Below, one piece after another: positions 37,417-64,000 of a DNA stretch of 64,000 bases. How positions within the stretch are numbered: the first letter of the stretch is position 1; the number at the start of each line of letters is the position of its first letter. The stretch is from the human T2T-CHM13v2.0 reference genome, Homo sapiens: the NCBI RefSeq assembly GCF_009914755.1, contig NC_060925.1, one strand, 5' to 3'. A program made the translations under genes and the position numbers. The notes beneath the pieces are model-generated. The model was not told where the DNA came from, searched no databases, and was given only the letters and a program-made list of their open reading frames with translations.

Positions 37417-39390
37417 GTGAGTGACACGAGGCCCGCGGCCGCGCTCGCTCCTCGGGCGCCGCTTCCCGCCCCGGCCCGTTGCCGGCCCCTCCCGGAGCGC
37501 GGAGCTGGTGAGGAGGACTCCGGCCCGGACCCACGGGCGCTGTGGGACCTCGTCAGCCGCTCGGCCCGCGTCGCGGCGTTGGGCCTCGGGTGTCGGCGGT
37601 GCGGGCGGCCAAGCCGCGCCGCCTTCGAAGAGCCCGCGGGGCCCCGGCGGCCGCGTCCGTGACGAGGGAGGTGACCGAGGCTCGGCCTCCACGCAGCCGG
37701 CGCCCCGGGGCTGCCCTCGCGTCAGCCCGGGAGTCGGTGGGAGATGCGCTGGGCGGCGGGGTCGCGTCCTTGCGCGCAGTGCCCGGCCCGGAGCAGCCGG
37801 GACCCGAGCCCGCCCGACAGCCGGGTCCGGCGCCGCCACTCCAAGCTGCTCTGCGGGCGCTCGGCAATGTCTGACTCGGGAGGGTTCCGTGCGAAGGGAA
37901 AGGCGGTGCGAAAACAGAAGTCGCAGTAGGTACTGTGGTCGCGTCGCGGACCCGGAGAGACCATCTAGGACCTCTCCGGAGGATTTGCAGCCTTGAAACT
38001 CACTGGGAATGGCAAACGTTTCTCGTTTTTGCGGGGCTGGGTGGAGAGTGGTGTGAAATAAGTTGGTGCGCCCGTTTGGGCTTCCTCGTCCCCGGCGGAG
38101 GAGACCGCGTCTGACAGGAGGTTGCTAGCCCCGGCGCCCGTAGCCTCGGGTCGCACTCCCAGGCCGCCCTAAGACCCTGGTGCCCCCCACCCCTGAATTC
38201 CCGAATCAAACGGTAAAACATTCCAAACCTTTTACGATGAGAAGATGTAGCTTAAAAAAAAAACCTCCCCTGAATATTTTTGTGAATTATAAGAATAAAT
38301 GTTGTCGTTGATACATCTTATTGAGTAGCGTGTAGTGCGTTTTCTTTGTGAAATGCCTGTGTACCGTAACAGATAGGCCTCCGCATAAAACACTTATTAA
38401 AATGACGATTGGCTTGGACTTGGTGCAGATTCAGAGGGACCATAGCAAATCTGTGGTTGTCCTCGAAAATGACAGTTTATTCCGATATTTAAGACCCTGG
38501 AAGGTTTTAAGTTTGGCTTTTAATTTCCCTTACTATGTAGTGAGTGAAGGAAATTATGGAGCGTCCTCATTAATGAGTCACCATGGGAAAAATAGATTGC
38601 GTCGCTCGCTTTGAGCCGCTTGGATAAGGAAATGGAAGCAGCGGCGGCGGAGCTCCTGTCTTTTAAATGGAGGATCATTGATTGTGTTGGTGGTTGCTGT
38701 TACTGGGGCATTAAACCCTCGCCGCTGGAGCGCGCGTCTGCGCGTGTCCGCGTGTGAAAAGGAGCCGGGAATCGTGGGGCCATTCATAACCTGCTTGAGC
38801 TGTCCTCGGCAGGCCGGGGGGAGGTGCGCGCTTCCAGGGACTCTCCCGGTGTTTACTACGTCGTGCCTGAGAAACCAGGCGGGGGCGGGGGGAGGCAGGG
38901 AGCAAAAATTCACCTCTGTGCCCTAGGATGAAGGGGAGACCACGGGCTGGATTGGGAAGCAGATGGGAACTTTCTCTTCCTGGCGCTGCTCCACCCCTTA
39001 CCCGCCCCCCACCTCCTGGCTTCTCCTCGAGTATCGTCAGTGTTTTGATGGAAAAATCATTTAGGTGTACATTATTGGAGTGGAAAAACCACTTAGATGT
39101 GCTCACTTTAATCCCCTGTGGACTTTCTCTGTAGGTCTCTGCCTGGGAAATTCGTATGCACCGATGTACAAGCACGTGCATTGCAGCATTCGCTCGCTCC
39201 TCAGTGTTATGTGCCTAGACGTGTCATTTCTCATTATGCAGATTCCAGAGACATTGCATGCTTATGGCTGGGAGTTTGGCCCCTCTGCAAGATGAGGGGG
39301 CAGAGAGAAGAAAGAGGAAATCGTCCCAGGCAGCTTTGGAAGGGTTCTTAGTGGACGGTGCTGCGGTCTGGCTTGTGTGAATGACTTTCT

Positions 39391-39401
39391 AAAATGGCGG
39401 C
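39391..39401 (+). promoter_or_regulatory. Consensus YY1 site in SPEN intron 1
   Basis: AAAATGGCGGC, an exact YY1 consensus, in unique sequence at the island edge. Confidence 0.6.
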
Positions 39402-41045
39402 CAGGACCCACTTTATGTGGGAATCAGCAGAGCCGATCTCAGAATGCACAGAGGGAGGAGGGGGCGGAGGATTCGAGCTGCCTTGGAAAGCGGCAGTCTG
39501 GAGGAACATTACTGTATTAAAAACGGCTTAGCTGGCAGTTTGCTCACGACTGCATTCAAAGGAGTATCTTACCTATTGCAGAGTAAAAGCAGATGCTACT
39601 GATAAAAGCAGGTTATTTTAAAACTAAGCAGATCATGTGTCCCTGAAATTCTTTTATTTTAAAGGTTTTTTTTTTCATTTTTAAACAAATCTATTTAGTT
39701 GTTTAAATAGACAGTACATTTTTATGGGTTCAAAGCATGTGAAAGGTATACAGAGAAAAATCTCCACCCCTGACCCTAGAATTCCCAGTTGCCACACTTC
39801 CTCCCCTCACCCCCCAAAATCCAGGTAATGTCTATTTCTGGTTTCTTGTTTATCTTTCTGCATGTACAAGAAATGTTCCTGCTGATCCAGCTGTGGAGCT
39901 AAGTGGACCTTGTTTGGAGGAACTCAAGGCCTTTTATCCCTATTGTGGGATATATTTTGTAAAATGTGTGATTGCTACTAGGAGTAAAAGTGAAATCTGA
40001 ATAATTTAAGTGAAAGGAATAAAAAGGTAGTTGTACCAGAACGATGGCTCTGCAAGAAAATGAAATGGTATTCACTTCTGGTGTCTTGTACAAATCAGAA
40101 TGAGAAAAACCATGCAATACCTATATTAAAACTGAACTTTAAGTGCCTACTCTTATCCTTTTCCCTAGCTGATTACATTAATAACTGTTTTACAGGATTA
40201 AGAGGTGTACACTGGGAATACATTATATAAAACGTTTTCAAGATGAATGTTCTCTTAACAGTGATTAGGCTTTTGTAGTAAGTGTTTGCATTTTACAAAA
40301 AGATTAAACCAGACAGCTTTGGGGACAGCTTAGAGACATTTTAACAAAAAAAAGAGGTCAGTCAGTTCTTTAAAAATTTTTATATTTATTTTTAAATTTA
40401 CATTCTGATTAGTTTTGTTTGTTTGTTTGTTTTTAAATGGACAGTAGATTGAGGGGTGGATGGCGATTTGGCTTTTTCCTCCCCAGTGCCAAAGAAAGAC
40501 CAAATCCTTAAAACATAATCAGAACATTTACAAAAATTGGCTTTTCTTTTCTTGCAATAATAATAAATCTGTTGTTATTTTTACAGTTTTCAGTTTGCGG
40601 ATTTAAAAAAATTAAATGAGAACTATTTCTGAATCGGGTTTTAGTTAACAAAGATTCATTACAGGGACACAATAGAGAAAGTCCTTTCCTTTGTATGTTA
40701 GCTGGGTTGAAGGGGGAAGGGAGGAGTTATACAATTGGTTCCTGTCTTTTAGTTATGAGAGGGAGAGAGGTGTCTGCAAAGGCGACTCCTTGAATTAGAA
40801 TGAGCAAATGAATAAAACCCTTAAAATATTTAACATCTTTATCTTTTCAGATTTTAAGTAAGTTGCGAATTTAGTTCTTCCCATCCATCTCCAGTTTTAG
40901 AGACTAGGTTAAAGATTATGCGGAGGTAAACTGAGGTAGCCCCTCGTGTAAAAATATTGTTAAAGAGGCTGGGTGCGGTGGCTCACGCTTATAATCCCAG
41001 CACTTTGGGAGGCCGAGGCGGGCGGGTCACGAAGTCAAGAGTTCA

Positions 41046-62074: not shown

Positions 62075-62395
62075 ATATGGCCGCGTGGAAAGTGTCAAAA
62101 TTCTTCCCAAGAGGGGATCTGAAGGAGGAGTGGCTGCCTTTGTGGATTTTGTGGACATCAAAAGTGCACAGAAAGCTCACAACTCGGTCAACAAAATGGG
62201 TGACAGAGACCTACGCACGGATTATAATGAACCAGGCACCATCCCGAGTGCTGCTCGGGGATTGGATGATACAGTTTCCATAGCATCTCGTAGTAGAGAG
62301 GTTTCTGGGTTCAGAGGAGGTGGTGGAGGGCCTGCTTATGGTCCCCCACCGTCACTTCATGCACGAGAAGGACGTTATGAGCGGAGACTTGATGG
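62075..62395 (+). CDS. SPEN: SPEN coding exon 2 (rest of RRM1 and start of the Arg/Gly-rich region): YGRVESVKILPKRGSEGGVAAFVDFVDIKSAQKAH...YERRLD(G)
   Basis: Acceptor ttttttccag|A, donor GG|GTAAGT; 321 nt; RNP1-like VAAFVDF; frame continuous with exon 1. Confidence 0.97.
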
Positions 62396-64000
62396 GTAAG
62401 TTCCAAGGTTTCTGTAGGCAGGTATTTTGTATTTGATATGGTGAGAAACAGAAACTCATATTTAGGGGCCCCAGATGGATTTAAAGTTTTGGGCATTCTC
62501 AATGTTTCCTATTTTGGGTTGGAAACGGAAGTGATTTATATCCCAATGGCTGGTATCTTATGGAATCGTAGAGGATATTTCCTGCAGCTGATTGGATATC
62601 TGTTCCTGAGATATAATGTGATGGAAGATTTCCTATGGAAGCTTCATTTTTGGAGTTACCTGTCTTCTAGAATTACTTATTCCTTCTCTTGGATAATGTT
62701 AAGTCCTTCCTTGGATATATCCCTTCTACCTGATGGAGCTATTTGGCTTTTGTGTTCATACTATATGGAATATTTCTGGAATATTAGAGCCTACAGATTC
62801 TTTTAGAAGTTGATATCTGCCTCTCCATTTTCACTACATAAAGTGTACAAACAAATTGGATTGTAACAAAAAATCTGGCAGACCATAATGATTCAACCAC
62901 TTGGATTCTACAAACAATACTTTAACGTGGAAATGTGTACTTGGATGAAGAAGAGAGAAGGCAATGCCTGATTTTTCCATTTTGGATCTACACAATTTCT
63001 GTATTGTTGGAATTACACTCTTTGATGGAATGGGGAAAAATTAAAATGATGGATGTTTCCTAAATCCTGGAATATAGCCATTCTTTTCTAATTGCTGGGA
63101 TATATGGGATGTCTTGCTGTCAAGATTCCACTAGCCCAGGGAAAGAGGATTACTATATCATTTCTTAAGCAAGTTGCTGTCCAATCAAAGGTACTTTAGC
63201 TTTGAACACATGGTGATGATCAGTTGTGGATACAGCAATCAAAATTGACTGGGCTGGATGGCTACAAAAGTGAACTATTGGCGAGCAACTGTGCCTTCCT
63301 CATTCGTTGGAATTGTAGAGGATATTTCCTCTTCTGCCAGCTACCTGATTCATACTTAGGGCTGGAAATATTTATGAATGTGGATAAATTTCTAATTGTC
63401 TGCTATCTCAAGAAAGAAGTCTGGGGGTTTGAGAGTTACAGTTTGTCTGGGACTACTTGCTTCCAGTGGAATTATTTTGTCTGGTCACTAAGATTTTTTT
63501 TTTCTTGTGGTTCATCTAAATATCATTTGACACCCTTGCCCATTAAGAAGGTGGATTACCCCCATAAGAGGGGCCAAAATTGGGGAAGTTATGTTCACAA
63601 TTCTCTCCCTAGATTTAATTGGGATTATAGGTCGTGTTTCCACACTTGGAAAAGGTTGGTATGTCCTGACCTGTGTATATTAGCCCCTCTCCTAACCCAA
63701 GTCAAACTCTCTTTTTTTCCCCACTAACTCTAGAAGTATTTAGTACTAATAGTGAATCAGAGAATAGCCATTAGATTTCAGCTCTGCTAGCTCTTGTGCC
63801 TGCCTTCTGTATCTTCTTAATGGATAAGAACTTTGCATATTTATAAAATAGCAGCTGTAGCAGTAATCGTCCTAGAACTTTTTTGCCTGTTGCTTCTGTT
63901 AAATCATTAATAATGGCTTTCACTGATTAACATTTGATAGGGTGCTAAAGTAATTATTTATGGCATTTTAAGTCTCAAAGGAAACCCTCTTATTTGTTAG
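62396..64000 (+). other. SPEN: SPEN intron 2, 5' part; free of recognisable repeats and motif-rich
   Basis: Starts gtaagt; no Alu in 1.6 kb; dense TGGA(A/T) motifs. Confidence 0.85.

What the first reader, a model, noticed from the sequence alone, without database searches (positions are those of the whole stretch)
62470..63655. Strand-specific UGGA(A/U) motif array at the start of SPEN intron 2: candidate Xist-A-repeat-like SPEN autoregulatory RNA element
Seen: I count ~29 TGGA on the sense strand in ~1.2 kb (about 27 followed by A/T), against ~7 TCCA and roughly 5 expected from composition. The segment has no Alu although the adjacent intron is saturated with them. Several copies resemble the GGATACCTG half of the Xist A-repeat unit: TGGATATCTG (62593-62602) and TGGAGTTACCTG (62651-62662). 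CCCC-ATAAGA-GGGG (63560-63573) resembles the A-repeat GCCC-ATCG-GGGC hairpin. Established: SPEN RRMs bind the Xist A-repeat and SPEN silences via NCoR/SMRT-HDAC3; the plant SPEN-family protein FPA autoregulates through its own intron. Inference: nascent SPEN pre-mRNA carries a multivalent SPEN landing pad that represses, attenuates or terminates its own transcription in cis. I have an unverified recollection that SPEN binding to its own intron 2 has been seen, so the binding itself may not be new, but the motif grammar may be.
Basis: partly seen in the sequence, partly recalled or inferred. Interest (0 to 1): 0.9.

Follow-up and report, generated by a model that had tools for sequence, protein, structure and literature searches.

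The report
UGGA array marks SPEN poison exon
A 1.2-kb stretch just after exon 2 of the human SPEN gene is packed on one strand with the short word UGGA(A/U); it likely is the human counterpart of a methylation-controlled dead-end exon extension already reported in mouse, where the words would bind splicing proteins and help the gene limit its own output, and it is not a copy of the Xist A-repeat.

Summary
The array is real: 29 TGGA against 6 TCCA, 27 followed by A/T; none of 400 shuffles or 272 background tiles comes close. The A-repeat likeness does not hold: a profile of the real XIST units scores no better than shuffles.

The stretch likely is an alternative, non-productive extension of exon 2. 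In mouse Spen a second 5' splice site lies 1,213 nt downstream of the normal one. It carries 34% of junction reads, 17% after METTL3 loss (adjusted p 0.16), and m6A peaks tile exactly that interval (PMC8327914). In human the array stops at about 63650, beside two candidate donors at +1,259 and +1,263, and read-through meets a stop codon at once.

UGGA(A/U) matches published SRSF1/SRSF9 ligands, so the array likely defines the long exon and gathers SR proteins, SPEN and the m6A writer. Not found in print: the grammar, a 23-nt internal repeat, and a two-fold lack of canonical m6A (DRACH) sites. Human use of the distal donor and motif conservation were not testable. Interest 0.5.

The parts
62075..62395 (+). 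SPEN exon 2 (coding; encodes the C-terminal part of RRM1)
   Evidence: Annotation in the finding; translation; Pfam RRM_1 positions 22-62 of 70, E 5e-4, just under the curated cut-off as a fragment
62393..62401 (+). Proximal (productive) 5' splice site TGG|GTAAGT
   Evidence: Annotated exon end; rank 1 of 100 GT sites on a crude U1-complementarity score
62397..62399 (+). In-frame TAA met at once if the proximal donor is skipped; leaves a 135-aa product with RRM1 only
   Evidence: lies 1,255-1,259 nt upstream of the candidate distal junction
62396..63658 (+). Inferred non-productive extension of exon 2 (1,259 or 1,263 nt), likely orthologous to the 1,213-nt mouse extension
   Evidence: Mouse junctions chr4:141517318:141522072 and :141520859; mouse m6A peaks 141520883-141522052; single copy in the genome; no Alu
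62476..63650 (+). Dispersed array of 29 TGGA (14 TGGAA, 13 TGGAT, 2 TGGAG, 0 TGGAC), often with an A/T-rich tail; DRACH-poor
   Evidence: TGGA[AT] density 21.4 per kb against 2.8 per kb in the rest of intron 2; change point 63650, support 63385-63875
62561..62583 (+). 23-nt direct repeat, copy 1
   Evidence: 22 of 23 identical to copy 2; longest such repeat in 450 shuffles was 18; elsewhere in the genome one two-mismatch hit
63308..63330 (+). 23-nt direct repeat, copy 2; sits in a stem-loop
   Evidence: the 61-nt window folds at z -2.7 (1 of 200 shuffles), whereas the window of copy 1 does not (z -0.6)
63652..63660 (+). Candidate distal donor A, AAG|GTTGGT (+1,259)
   Evidence: Joint rank 3 of 100 GT sites; use in human not shown
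63656..63664 (+). Candidate distal donor B, TTG|GTATGT (+1,263)
   Evidence: Joint rank 3 of 100 GT sites; use in human not shown
62419..62427 (+). Further donor-like site CAG|GTATTT (+26)
   Evidence: Rank 2 of 100; no counterpart among the mouse junction rows seen
63560..63573 (+).
   Evidence: Folding z +0.48, 130 of 200 shuffles fold as well; a 4-bp GC hairpin occurs in 8-14% of shuffles

Best explanation
The UGGA(A/U)-rich stretch is likely the human form of a non-productive ('poison') extension of SPEN exon 2, in which the UGGA(A/U) words would act as many SR-protein (SRSF1/SRSF9) sites that favour a distal 5' splice site near 63655-63659 and so lower the output of full-length SPEN. Steps: (1) Shown in sequence: the array runs from 80 nt after the normal donor to within 10 nt of two donor-like sites, then falls to background, and skipping the normal donor meets a stop codon at once. 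(2) Published for mouse: a distal donor 1,213 nt downstream is used in about a third of nascent junction reads, the interval carries m6A and RBM15, and its use halves on METTL3 loss. (3) Inferred: the human interval is the orthologue and is spliced the same way. (4) Inferred: SR proteins on UGGA(A/U) define this unusually long exon and draw in SPEN, RBM15 and the m6A writer, with the U-rich tails as direct contacts. (5) Predicted: the extended transcript is lost to nonsense-mediated or nuclear decay, or gives only a 135-aa RRM1 piece. (6) Least certain: SPEN level itself shifts the donor choice and closes a negative feedback loop. My odds: step 3 about 0.85, step 4 about 0.65, step 6 about 0.4.
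For: Array ends at 63650 (support 63385-63875), 21.4 against 2.8 per kb. Donor-like sites at +1,259 and +1,263 rank joint 3 of 100. The mouse extension is 1,213 nt, within 4% of the human length, while the rest of the intron is not conserved in length (3,541 against about 1,810 nt). Five high-confidence mouse m6A peaks tile exactly the inter-donor interval, with no peak row in the remaining intron. The authors call the event an alternative 5' splice site with a 'poisonous' exon part (PMC8327914). In-frame TAA at 62397-62399. SRSF1 RRM2 binds GGA and was tested on UGGAU RNAs (PMC7813835); SRSF1 and SRSF9 bind UGGAA/GGAAU repeats (reviews PMC9099484 and PMC10505914). SPEN is recruited through SR-protein assemblies in cells and binds U-rich RNA directly (10.1101/2025.05.21.655143). 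Strand bias 27 against 4. GGA followed by five A/T: 13 against 5.6 in 4-mer-preserving shuffles, 0 of 1,000 (pattern chosen after seeing the data).
Against: No human junction read was seen: SPEN is absent from a 23,090-row human NMD-event table (PMC7347940), although YTHDC1 is absent there too, so that table misses this class. The mouse change is not significant after correction (p 0.002, adjusted 0.156), and total nascent Spen rose without significance (log2FC 0.38 and 0.47, p 0.47 and 0.38). Orthology rests on position and length; no mouse sequence could be aligned. The change-point interval is about 500 nt wide, and donors were scored with a crude score, not MaxEntScan. The human interval is short of DRACH sites (11 against 22.8; 0 of 500 shuffles as low), which is awkward for canonical m6A control. 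The SRSF1 two-domain signature (C at -4 or +6 of GGA) is not enriched: 4 and 7 of 29. YTHDC1, the sister example in the mouse paper, shows no such array in 30 kb (max 8 per kb). Spen up-regulation in knockouts is seen in nascent RNA, which also fits transcriptional repression.
Confidence: 0.62

Rival explanations
1. The array is a co-transcriptional landing pad: SR proteins and SPEN gather on the nascent RNA and repress or slow SPEN transcription in cis. Splicing to the distal donor would be secondary. This is not exclusive with the best explanation.
For: Spen is strongly up-regulated in nascent RNA of knockout cells, and SPEN represses autosomal genes at SR-protein-rich RNA sites. irCLIP signal lies across Spen exon 2. 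SPIDR reports SPEN on its own mRNA (PMC10274648).
Against: No text I could read places the SPEN signal inside this interval. The array's end at donor-like sites and the mouse splicing data point to exon definition. The element lies 25 kb from the promoter.
Confidence: 0.2
2. The array promotes premature 3'-end formation in intron 2, as plant FPA does in its own first intron, giving a short RRM1-only transcript.
For: FPA precedent, also leaving one RRM (review PMC10111866); ATTAAA at 63040; AATAAA 375 nt past the distal donor, just outside the window.
Against: No AATAAA in the array. Mouse reads splice from the distal donor on to exon 3, and the authors class the event as alternative 5' splice site, not alternative last exon.
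Confidence: 0.07
3. The words are the remains of an old transposon, satellite or local duplication and have no function.
For: The 23-nt repeat shows a local duplication; TGGAAT is the satellite-3 word. No repeat library was on hand, and the genome search skips common words.
Against: Single copy in the genome; the repeat's flanks align no better than shuffles (score 45; shuffle mean 32, max 54); no period; interval length and m6A marking kept in mouse.
Confidence: 0.06
4. A DNA-level element: clustered TEAD- or NFAT-like sites (GGAAT, GGAAA; motifs recalled) forming an intronic enhancer.
For: TGGAAT occurs 8 times against 1.3 expected.
Against: Strong strand bias (27 against 4); TGGAT is as common as TGGAA; the boundary matches splice sites. 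None of the functional elements printed in the finding covers it, but four were not printed.
Confidence: 0.05

Closest known systems
Mouse Spen intron 2 m6A-dependent alternative 5' splice site (PMC8327914)
   Same: Same gene and intron, starts at the exon 2 donor, 1,213 against 1,259-1,263 nt, non-productive extension.
   Different: Shown in mouse only. The sections read describe no UGGA grammar, DRACH shortage or internal repeat; human donor use is not shown here.
Poison exons and unproductive splicing of RNA-binding and m6A factors (Ythdc1 intron 11, Wtap intron 6, SR genes)
   Same: A stop-containing alternative segment that lowers productive mRNA of an RNA-binding regulator.
   Different: A long 5'-splice-site extension rather than a cassette exon; the YTHDC1 region lacks the UGGA(A/U) array; control by SPEN itself is unproven.
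Xist/XIST Repeat A
   Same: Possibly the same working logic: many short SR-protein sites beside U-rich sequence that recruit SPEN, RBM15 and the m6A writer (inferred). One 9-mer, GGATATCTG, equals part of one XIST unit.
   Different: No tandem 24-25-nt GC-rich core, no AUCG hairpin, TGGA rather than CGGA, no sequence or k-mer similarity above chance; it lies in a pre-mRNA, not a lncRNA.
HSATIII (GGAAU)n and SCA31 (UGGAA)n RNAs
   Same: Same core word; reported to bind SRSF1/SRSF9, and for HSATIII to carry METTL3-linked m6A outside the GGACU consensus.
   Different: Those are tandem repeats of hundreds of units. Here 29 dispersed words, half of them UGGAU, lie in single-copy sequence.
Arabidopsis FPA autoregulation
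   Same: SPEN-family gene limited through an early intron, leaving a one-RRM product.
   Different: FPA uses proximal polyadenylation; here the evidence points to a distal splice donor.

Membership tests
Xist Repeat A | Tandem units with a 24-25-nt GC-rich core | tested here: not met
   Profile from 8 human XIST units: best 3.4 bits against at least 37.7 for real units; 50 and 82 of 500 shuffles as good; gapped alignment 136 and 166 of 200; no tandem array
Xist Repeat A | GCCC-AUCG-GGGC hairpin (AWCG motif needed for SRSF1) | tested here: not met
   No match within 3 mismatches; one ATCG, as expected by chance; the named hairpin folds at z +0.48
Xist Repeat A | GGAUACCUG 3' half | tested here: inconclusive
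   Within 1 mismatch: 1 hit (53 and 100 of 300 shuffles); within 2: 5 hits (14 and 50 of 300). Top-5 half-profile score reached by 13 and 47 of 500. TACCTG occurs 3 times (1 of 300 in both shuffles). Weak, and mostly explained by the GGAT excess
Xist Repeat A | Overall k-mer similarity | tested here: not met
   r 0.065 (53 of 238 background tiles as high) for 4-mers and 0.025 (57 of 238) for 5-mers
Xist Repeat A | Recruits SPEN and silences in cis | not testable with these tools
   Published SPEN signal 'across exon 2'; peak coordinates not readable
Poison exon / alternative 5' splice site coupled to decay | Competing downstream donor at the end of the segment | tested here: met
   Two donor-like sites at 63655 and 63659, joint rank 3 of 100, within 10 nt of the array's last word; sequence-level test only
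Poison exon / alternative 5' splice site coupled to decay | Premature stop well upstream of a later junction | tested here: met
   TAA 62397-62399, 1,255-1,259 nt before the distal junction, with 13 exons to follow
Poison exon / alternative 5' splice site coupled to decay | Junction reads showing use | tested here: inconclusive
   Mouse: yes, PSI 0.337. Human: not found in two supplement sets; no RNA-seq on hand
Poison exon / alternative 5' splice site coupled to decay | Stabilised by NMD inhibition; regulated by the encoded protein | not testable with these tools
   Needs RNA-seq after UPF1/SMG1 inhibition and after SPEN degradation
Poison exon / alternative 5' splice site coupled to decay | High sequence conservation | not testable with these tools
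   No other vertebrate genome on hand; only length and position agree with mouse
Canonical m6A-marked region | DRACH/GGACU motifs enriched | tested here: not met
   11 DRACH against 22.8 (0 of 500 shuffles as low) and 24.8 in background (5 of 238 as low); one GGACT
SRSF1 two-domain site | C at -4 or +6 of GGA | tested here: not met
   4 and 7 of 29, against a C fraction of 0.17 (rule from PMC7813835)
Transposon or satellite remnant | Related copies elsewhere in the genome, or a period | tested here: not met
   One genome match, itself (the search skips common words); no period; no Dfam/RepeatMasker test possible
Rfam families | Match at the gathering score | tested here: not met
   Six matches, E 1.4-8.6, all far below gathering

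The most novel reading that the evidence does not exclude
SPEN's poison extension is a single-copy, dispersed satellite-3-like RNA switch. Its UGGA(A/U) words are read both by SRSF9/SRSF1 and, once methylated outside the DRACH consensus, by YTHDC1, while canonical DRACH sites have been selected away. SR proteins then bring SPEN onto its own pre-mRNA, so that SPEN, RBM15 and METTL3 set SPEN dosage by donor choice. Blocking the distal donor or the words would raise SPEN in haploinsufficiency.
Probability: 0.2. Interest if true: 0.8.

Novelty: new variant of a known kind. Interest (0 to 1): 0.5.

Why it matters
SPEN is the effector of Xist silencing and is dosage-sensitive: haploinsufficiency causes a neurodevelopmental disorder (title of a cited paper). 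Its self-limitation is published, but I found no cis element defined for it. This work gives the likely human coordinates, two candidate donors, the stop codon and a 29-site grammar that can be mutated directly. If about a third of nascent transcripts take the dead-end path in human as in mouse, the distal donor is a candidate target for a splice-switching oligonucleotide to raise SPEN. The DRACH shortage in an interval that is m6A-tiled in mouse gives a clean test of non-canonical m6A in a single-copy pre-mRNA.

Tried and rejected
A-repeat homology: rejected by motif counts, a profile, gapped alignment and k-mer correlation.

Hidden coding origin: no codon phase (14/9/6), longest open stretch 138 codons and out of the SPEN frame; that stretch was not scanned against Pfam.

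Tandem repeat or satellite: none. Rfam: nothing. Copies elsewhere: none.

The array masking the proximal donor by pairing with its GUUCCA: best duplex -20.4 kcal/mol, reached by 6 and 13 of 60 shuffles and 9 of 68 background tiles; rejected.

A series of GGA...UCC hairpins: 6 and 7 cases, not above 4-mer shuffles (188 and 59 of 1,000). Nine 150-nt windows fold at z -1.2 to +1.6, so no global structure.

Longer duplication around the 23-nt repeat: not above shuffles. Shared grammar with YTHDC1: none in 30 kb; intron 11 was not located precisely. SRSF3-type word (recalled): not enriched.

Human splicing evidence: nothing in PMC7347940 supplements (one file too large to read), only an unrelated Spen event in PMC13078869, nothing in PMC12096787.

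The 2024 CLAP paper, which I recall showing SPEN on its own intron 2, is not held, so that recollection stays unverified. The background rests on 17 stretches only.

Full report
1. The observation. 62470-63655 holds 29 TGGA and 6 TCCA; 27 TGGA are followed by A or T (14 TGGAA, 13 TGGAT, 2 TGGAG, 0 TGGAC). Dinucleotide shuffles give a mean of 11.3 and none of 400 reaches 29. The 52 upstream tiles of the window reach at most 6 TGGA[AT]. 272 tiles from 17 arbitrary genome stretches average 3.4, max 11. Letting each background tile choose its best 4-mer, the strongest is -log10 p 4.4 against 9.1 here. The excess is specific to the T-GGA-(A/T) context: AGGA 3 (background 7.1), GGAG 2 (6.2), GGAC 1 (2.8). 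Spacing is irregular, with no codon phase and no tandem array. The segment is single-copy and Alu-free, but so is all of intron 2; intron 1 is the Alu-rich one, 44% covered. New here is a 23-nt repeat, 22 of 23 identical, at 62561 and 63308, longer than the best in 450 shuffles (max 18).

2. It is not an A-repeat. I located human XIST Repeat A in the same assembly and built a profile from 8 units. The best score in the SPEN segment is 3.4 bits, against at least 37.7 for real units, and 50 and 82 of 500 shuffles match it. Gapped alignment and k-mer correlation are also at background. XIST units use CGGAT, and the repeat region holds only 2 TGGA. A faint likeness to the 3' half remains (13 of 500 dinucleotide shuffles, 47 of 500 4-mer shuffles; TACCTG three times, 1 of 300) and I count it inconclusive.

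3. What the segment is. PMC8327914 (read: sections 4, 7 part 1 of 2 and 8, passages, rows of Data S1-S3; its supplementary PDF with Fig. S14 was too large to read) names mouse Spen intron 2 as an example of intronic m6A beside a 5' splice site, shows an RBM15 irCLIP track for it, and classes it as an alternative 5' splice site whose added exon part is 'poisonous'. Its LeafCutter table lists two junctions to exon 3, from mm10 chr4:141522072 and 141520859, 1,213 nt apart. The distal one falls from PSI 0.337 to 0.167 on METTL3 degradation (p 0.002, adjusted 0.156). Five high-confidence m6A peaks run without a real gap from 141520883 to 141522052, and no row falls in the remaining intron. In human, intron 2 is 3,070 nt (exon 3 starts at window-equivalent 65466). 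TGGA[AT] density is 21.4 per kb up to a change point at 63650 (support 63385-63875) and 2.8 per kb after it. Of 100 GT sites from exon 2 to the window end, the normal donor ranks first, a site at +26 second, and two overlapping sites at +1,259 and +1,263 joint third on a crude U1-pairing score. The extension length is thus within 4% of mouse, while the rest of the intron differs two-fold (3,541 against about 1,810 nt). Skipping the normal donor reads GGG then TAA at 62397-62399. This leaves 135 residues with RRM1 and a stop 1,255-1,259 nt before the next junction, a standard NMD geometry by established rules. Orthology is inferred from position and length, not from an alignment.

4. How it likely works. 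SRSF1's second domain binds GGA and was measured on UGGAU RNAs (PMC7813835, passages). SRSF1 and SRSF9 bind UGGAA/GGAAU repeats (reviews PMC9099484 and PMC10505914, passages). SPEN reaches Repeat A and autosomal RNAs through SR-protein assemblies, while its RRM2-4 bind U-rich RNA directly, and such sites also carry the m6A machinery (10.1101/2025.05.21.655143, sections 6, 8, 9, 11; supplements not seen). The GGA words here often have an A/T tail (13 against 5.6; post hoc). I infer that the words are exonic enhancers that let a 1.6-kb exon be defined and gather SR proteins, SPEN/RBM15 and METTL3, favouring the distal donor. SPEN binding to its own RNA 'across exon 2' and Spen up-regulation in knockouts are published (PMC7282817, Results parts 2-3 of 4 and one Methods section; peak table too large to read; PMC10274648, passages). 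That SPEN drives the donor choice is not shown in anything I read. Confidence in the whole chain: 0.62.

5. Against and unexplained. No human junction evidence was found: the table in PMC7347940 lacks SPEN but also YTHDC1, and PMC13078869 lists only another Spen event. The mouse change misses significance after correction, and total nascent Spen did not change significantly. The SRSF1 two-domain signature is not enriched. A 30-kb YTHDC1 region shows no similar array, so the grammar is not general to this class. Most striking, DRACH sites are halved: 11 against 22.8 (0 of 500 as low) and 24.8 in background (5 of 238). RAC occurs 15 times against 26.4 and TAC 21 against 12.2, and no DRACH lies between 62457 and 62848, where the array is dense. 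Three readings fit: eleven sites suffice at antibody resolution, the mouse sequence differs, or GGA(A/U) is methylated outside the consensus as reported for HSATIII. The last is the novel case (0.2).

6. Rivals. A transcriptional landing pad (0.2) fits the nascent up-regulation and can coexist with the splicing route. FPA-like early polyadenylation (0.07; PMC10111866, passages) lacks an AATAAA in the array, although ATTAAA lies at 63040 and AATAAA 375 nt beyond the distal donor. Repeat remnant (0.06) and DNA enhancer (0.05) are disfavoured by single copy, strand bias and boundary.

7. Novelty. The mouse event and SPEN self-regulation are known. Ten library searches found no description of the UGGA(A/U) grammar, the DRACH shortage, the 23-nt repeat or the human donors. 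The search on 'Spen intron 2', 'exon 2 of Spen' and 'SPEN autoregulation' returned only the two works cited. Subscription papers, the 2024 CLAP paper and several supplements were not visible and may cover it. Verdict: new variant of a known kind, interest 0.5.

Noticed in passing
window 62419-62427: A second strong donor-like site (CAG|GTATTT) 26 nt after the normal exon 2 donor; its use would also include the TAA at 62397.
   Followed up: partly
window 62380-62430: The normal donor sits in a predicted local stem-loop (z -2.1; 7 of 200 shuffles) that could weaken it.
   Followed up: partly
window 62657-62662, 62727-62732, 63342-63347 (approximate): Three TACCTG words (1 of 300 shuffles); the word is complementary to a 5' splice site consensus and occurs in the XIST unit.
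   Followed up: partly
L002, window-equivalent 64034 (outside the window): AATAAA 375 nt past the candidate distal donor; a possible intronic poly(A) signal, without an obvious GU-rich downstream element in the 40 nt seen.
   Followed up: partly
window 63374 and 63591: Each candidate distal donor has one ATG in the extension that runs in frame into exon 3; re-initiation there would give SPEN without RRM1.
   Followed up: no
window 62396-62809: A 138-codon stop-free stretch, out of the SPEN frame, starting at the donor; probably chance, not scanned against Pfam.
   Followed up: no
window 38001-40000: Milder TGGA excess at the start of intron 1 (20 TGGA against 7 TCCA, only 8 followed by A/T), in a 3.5-kb Alu-free stretch.
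   Followed up: partly
window 62396-64000 and L002: All 3,070 nt of intron 2 lack Alu-like hits while introns 1 and 3 are full of them, suggesting constraint on the whole intron.
   Followed up: partly
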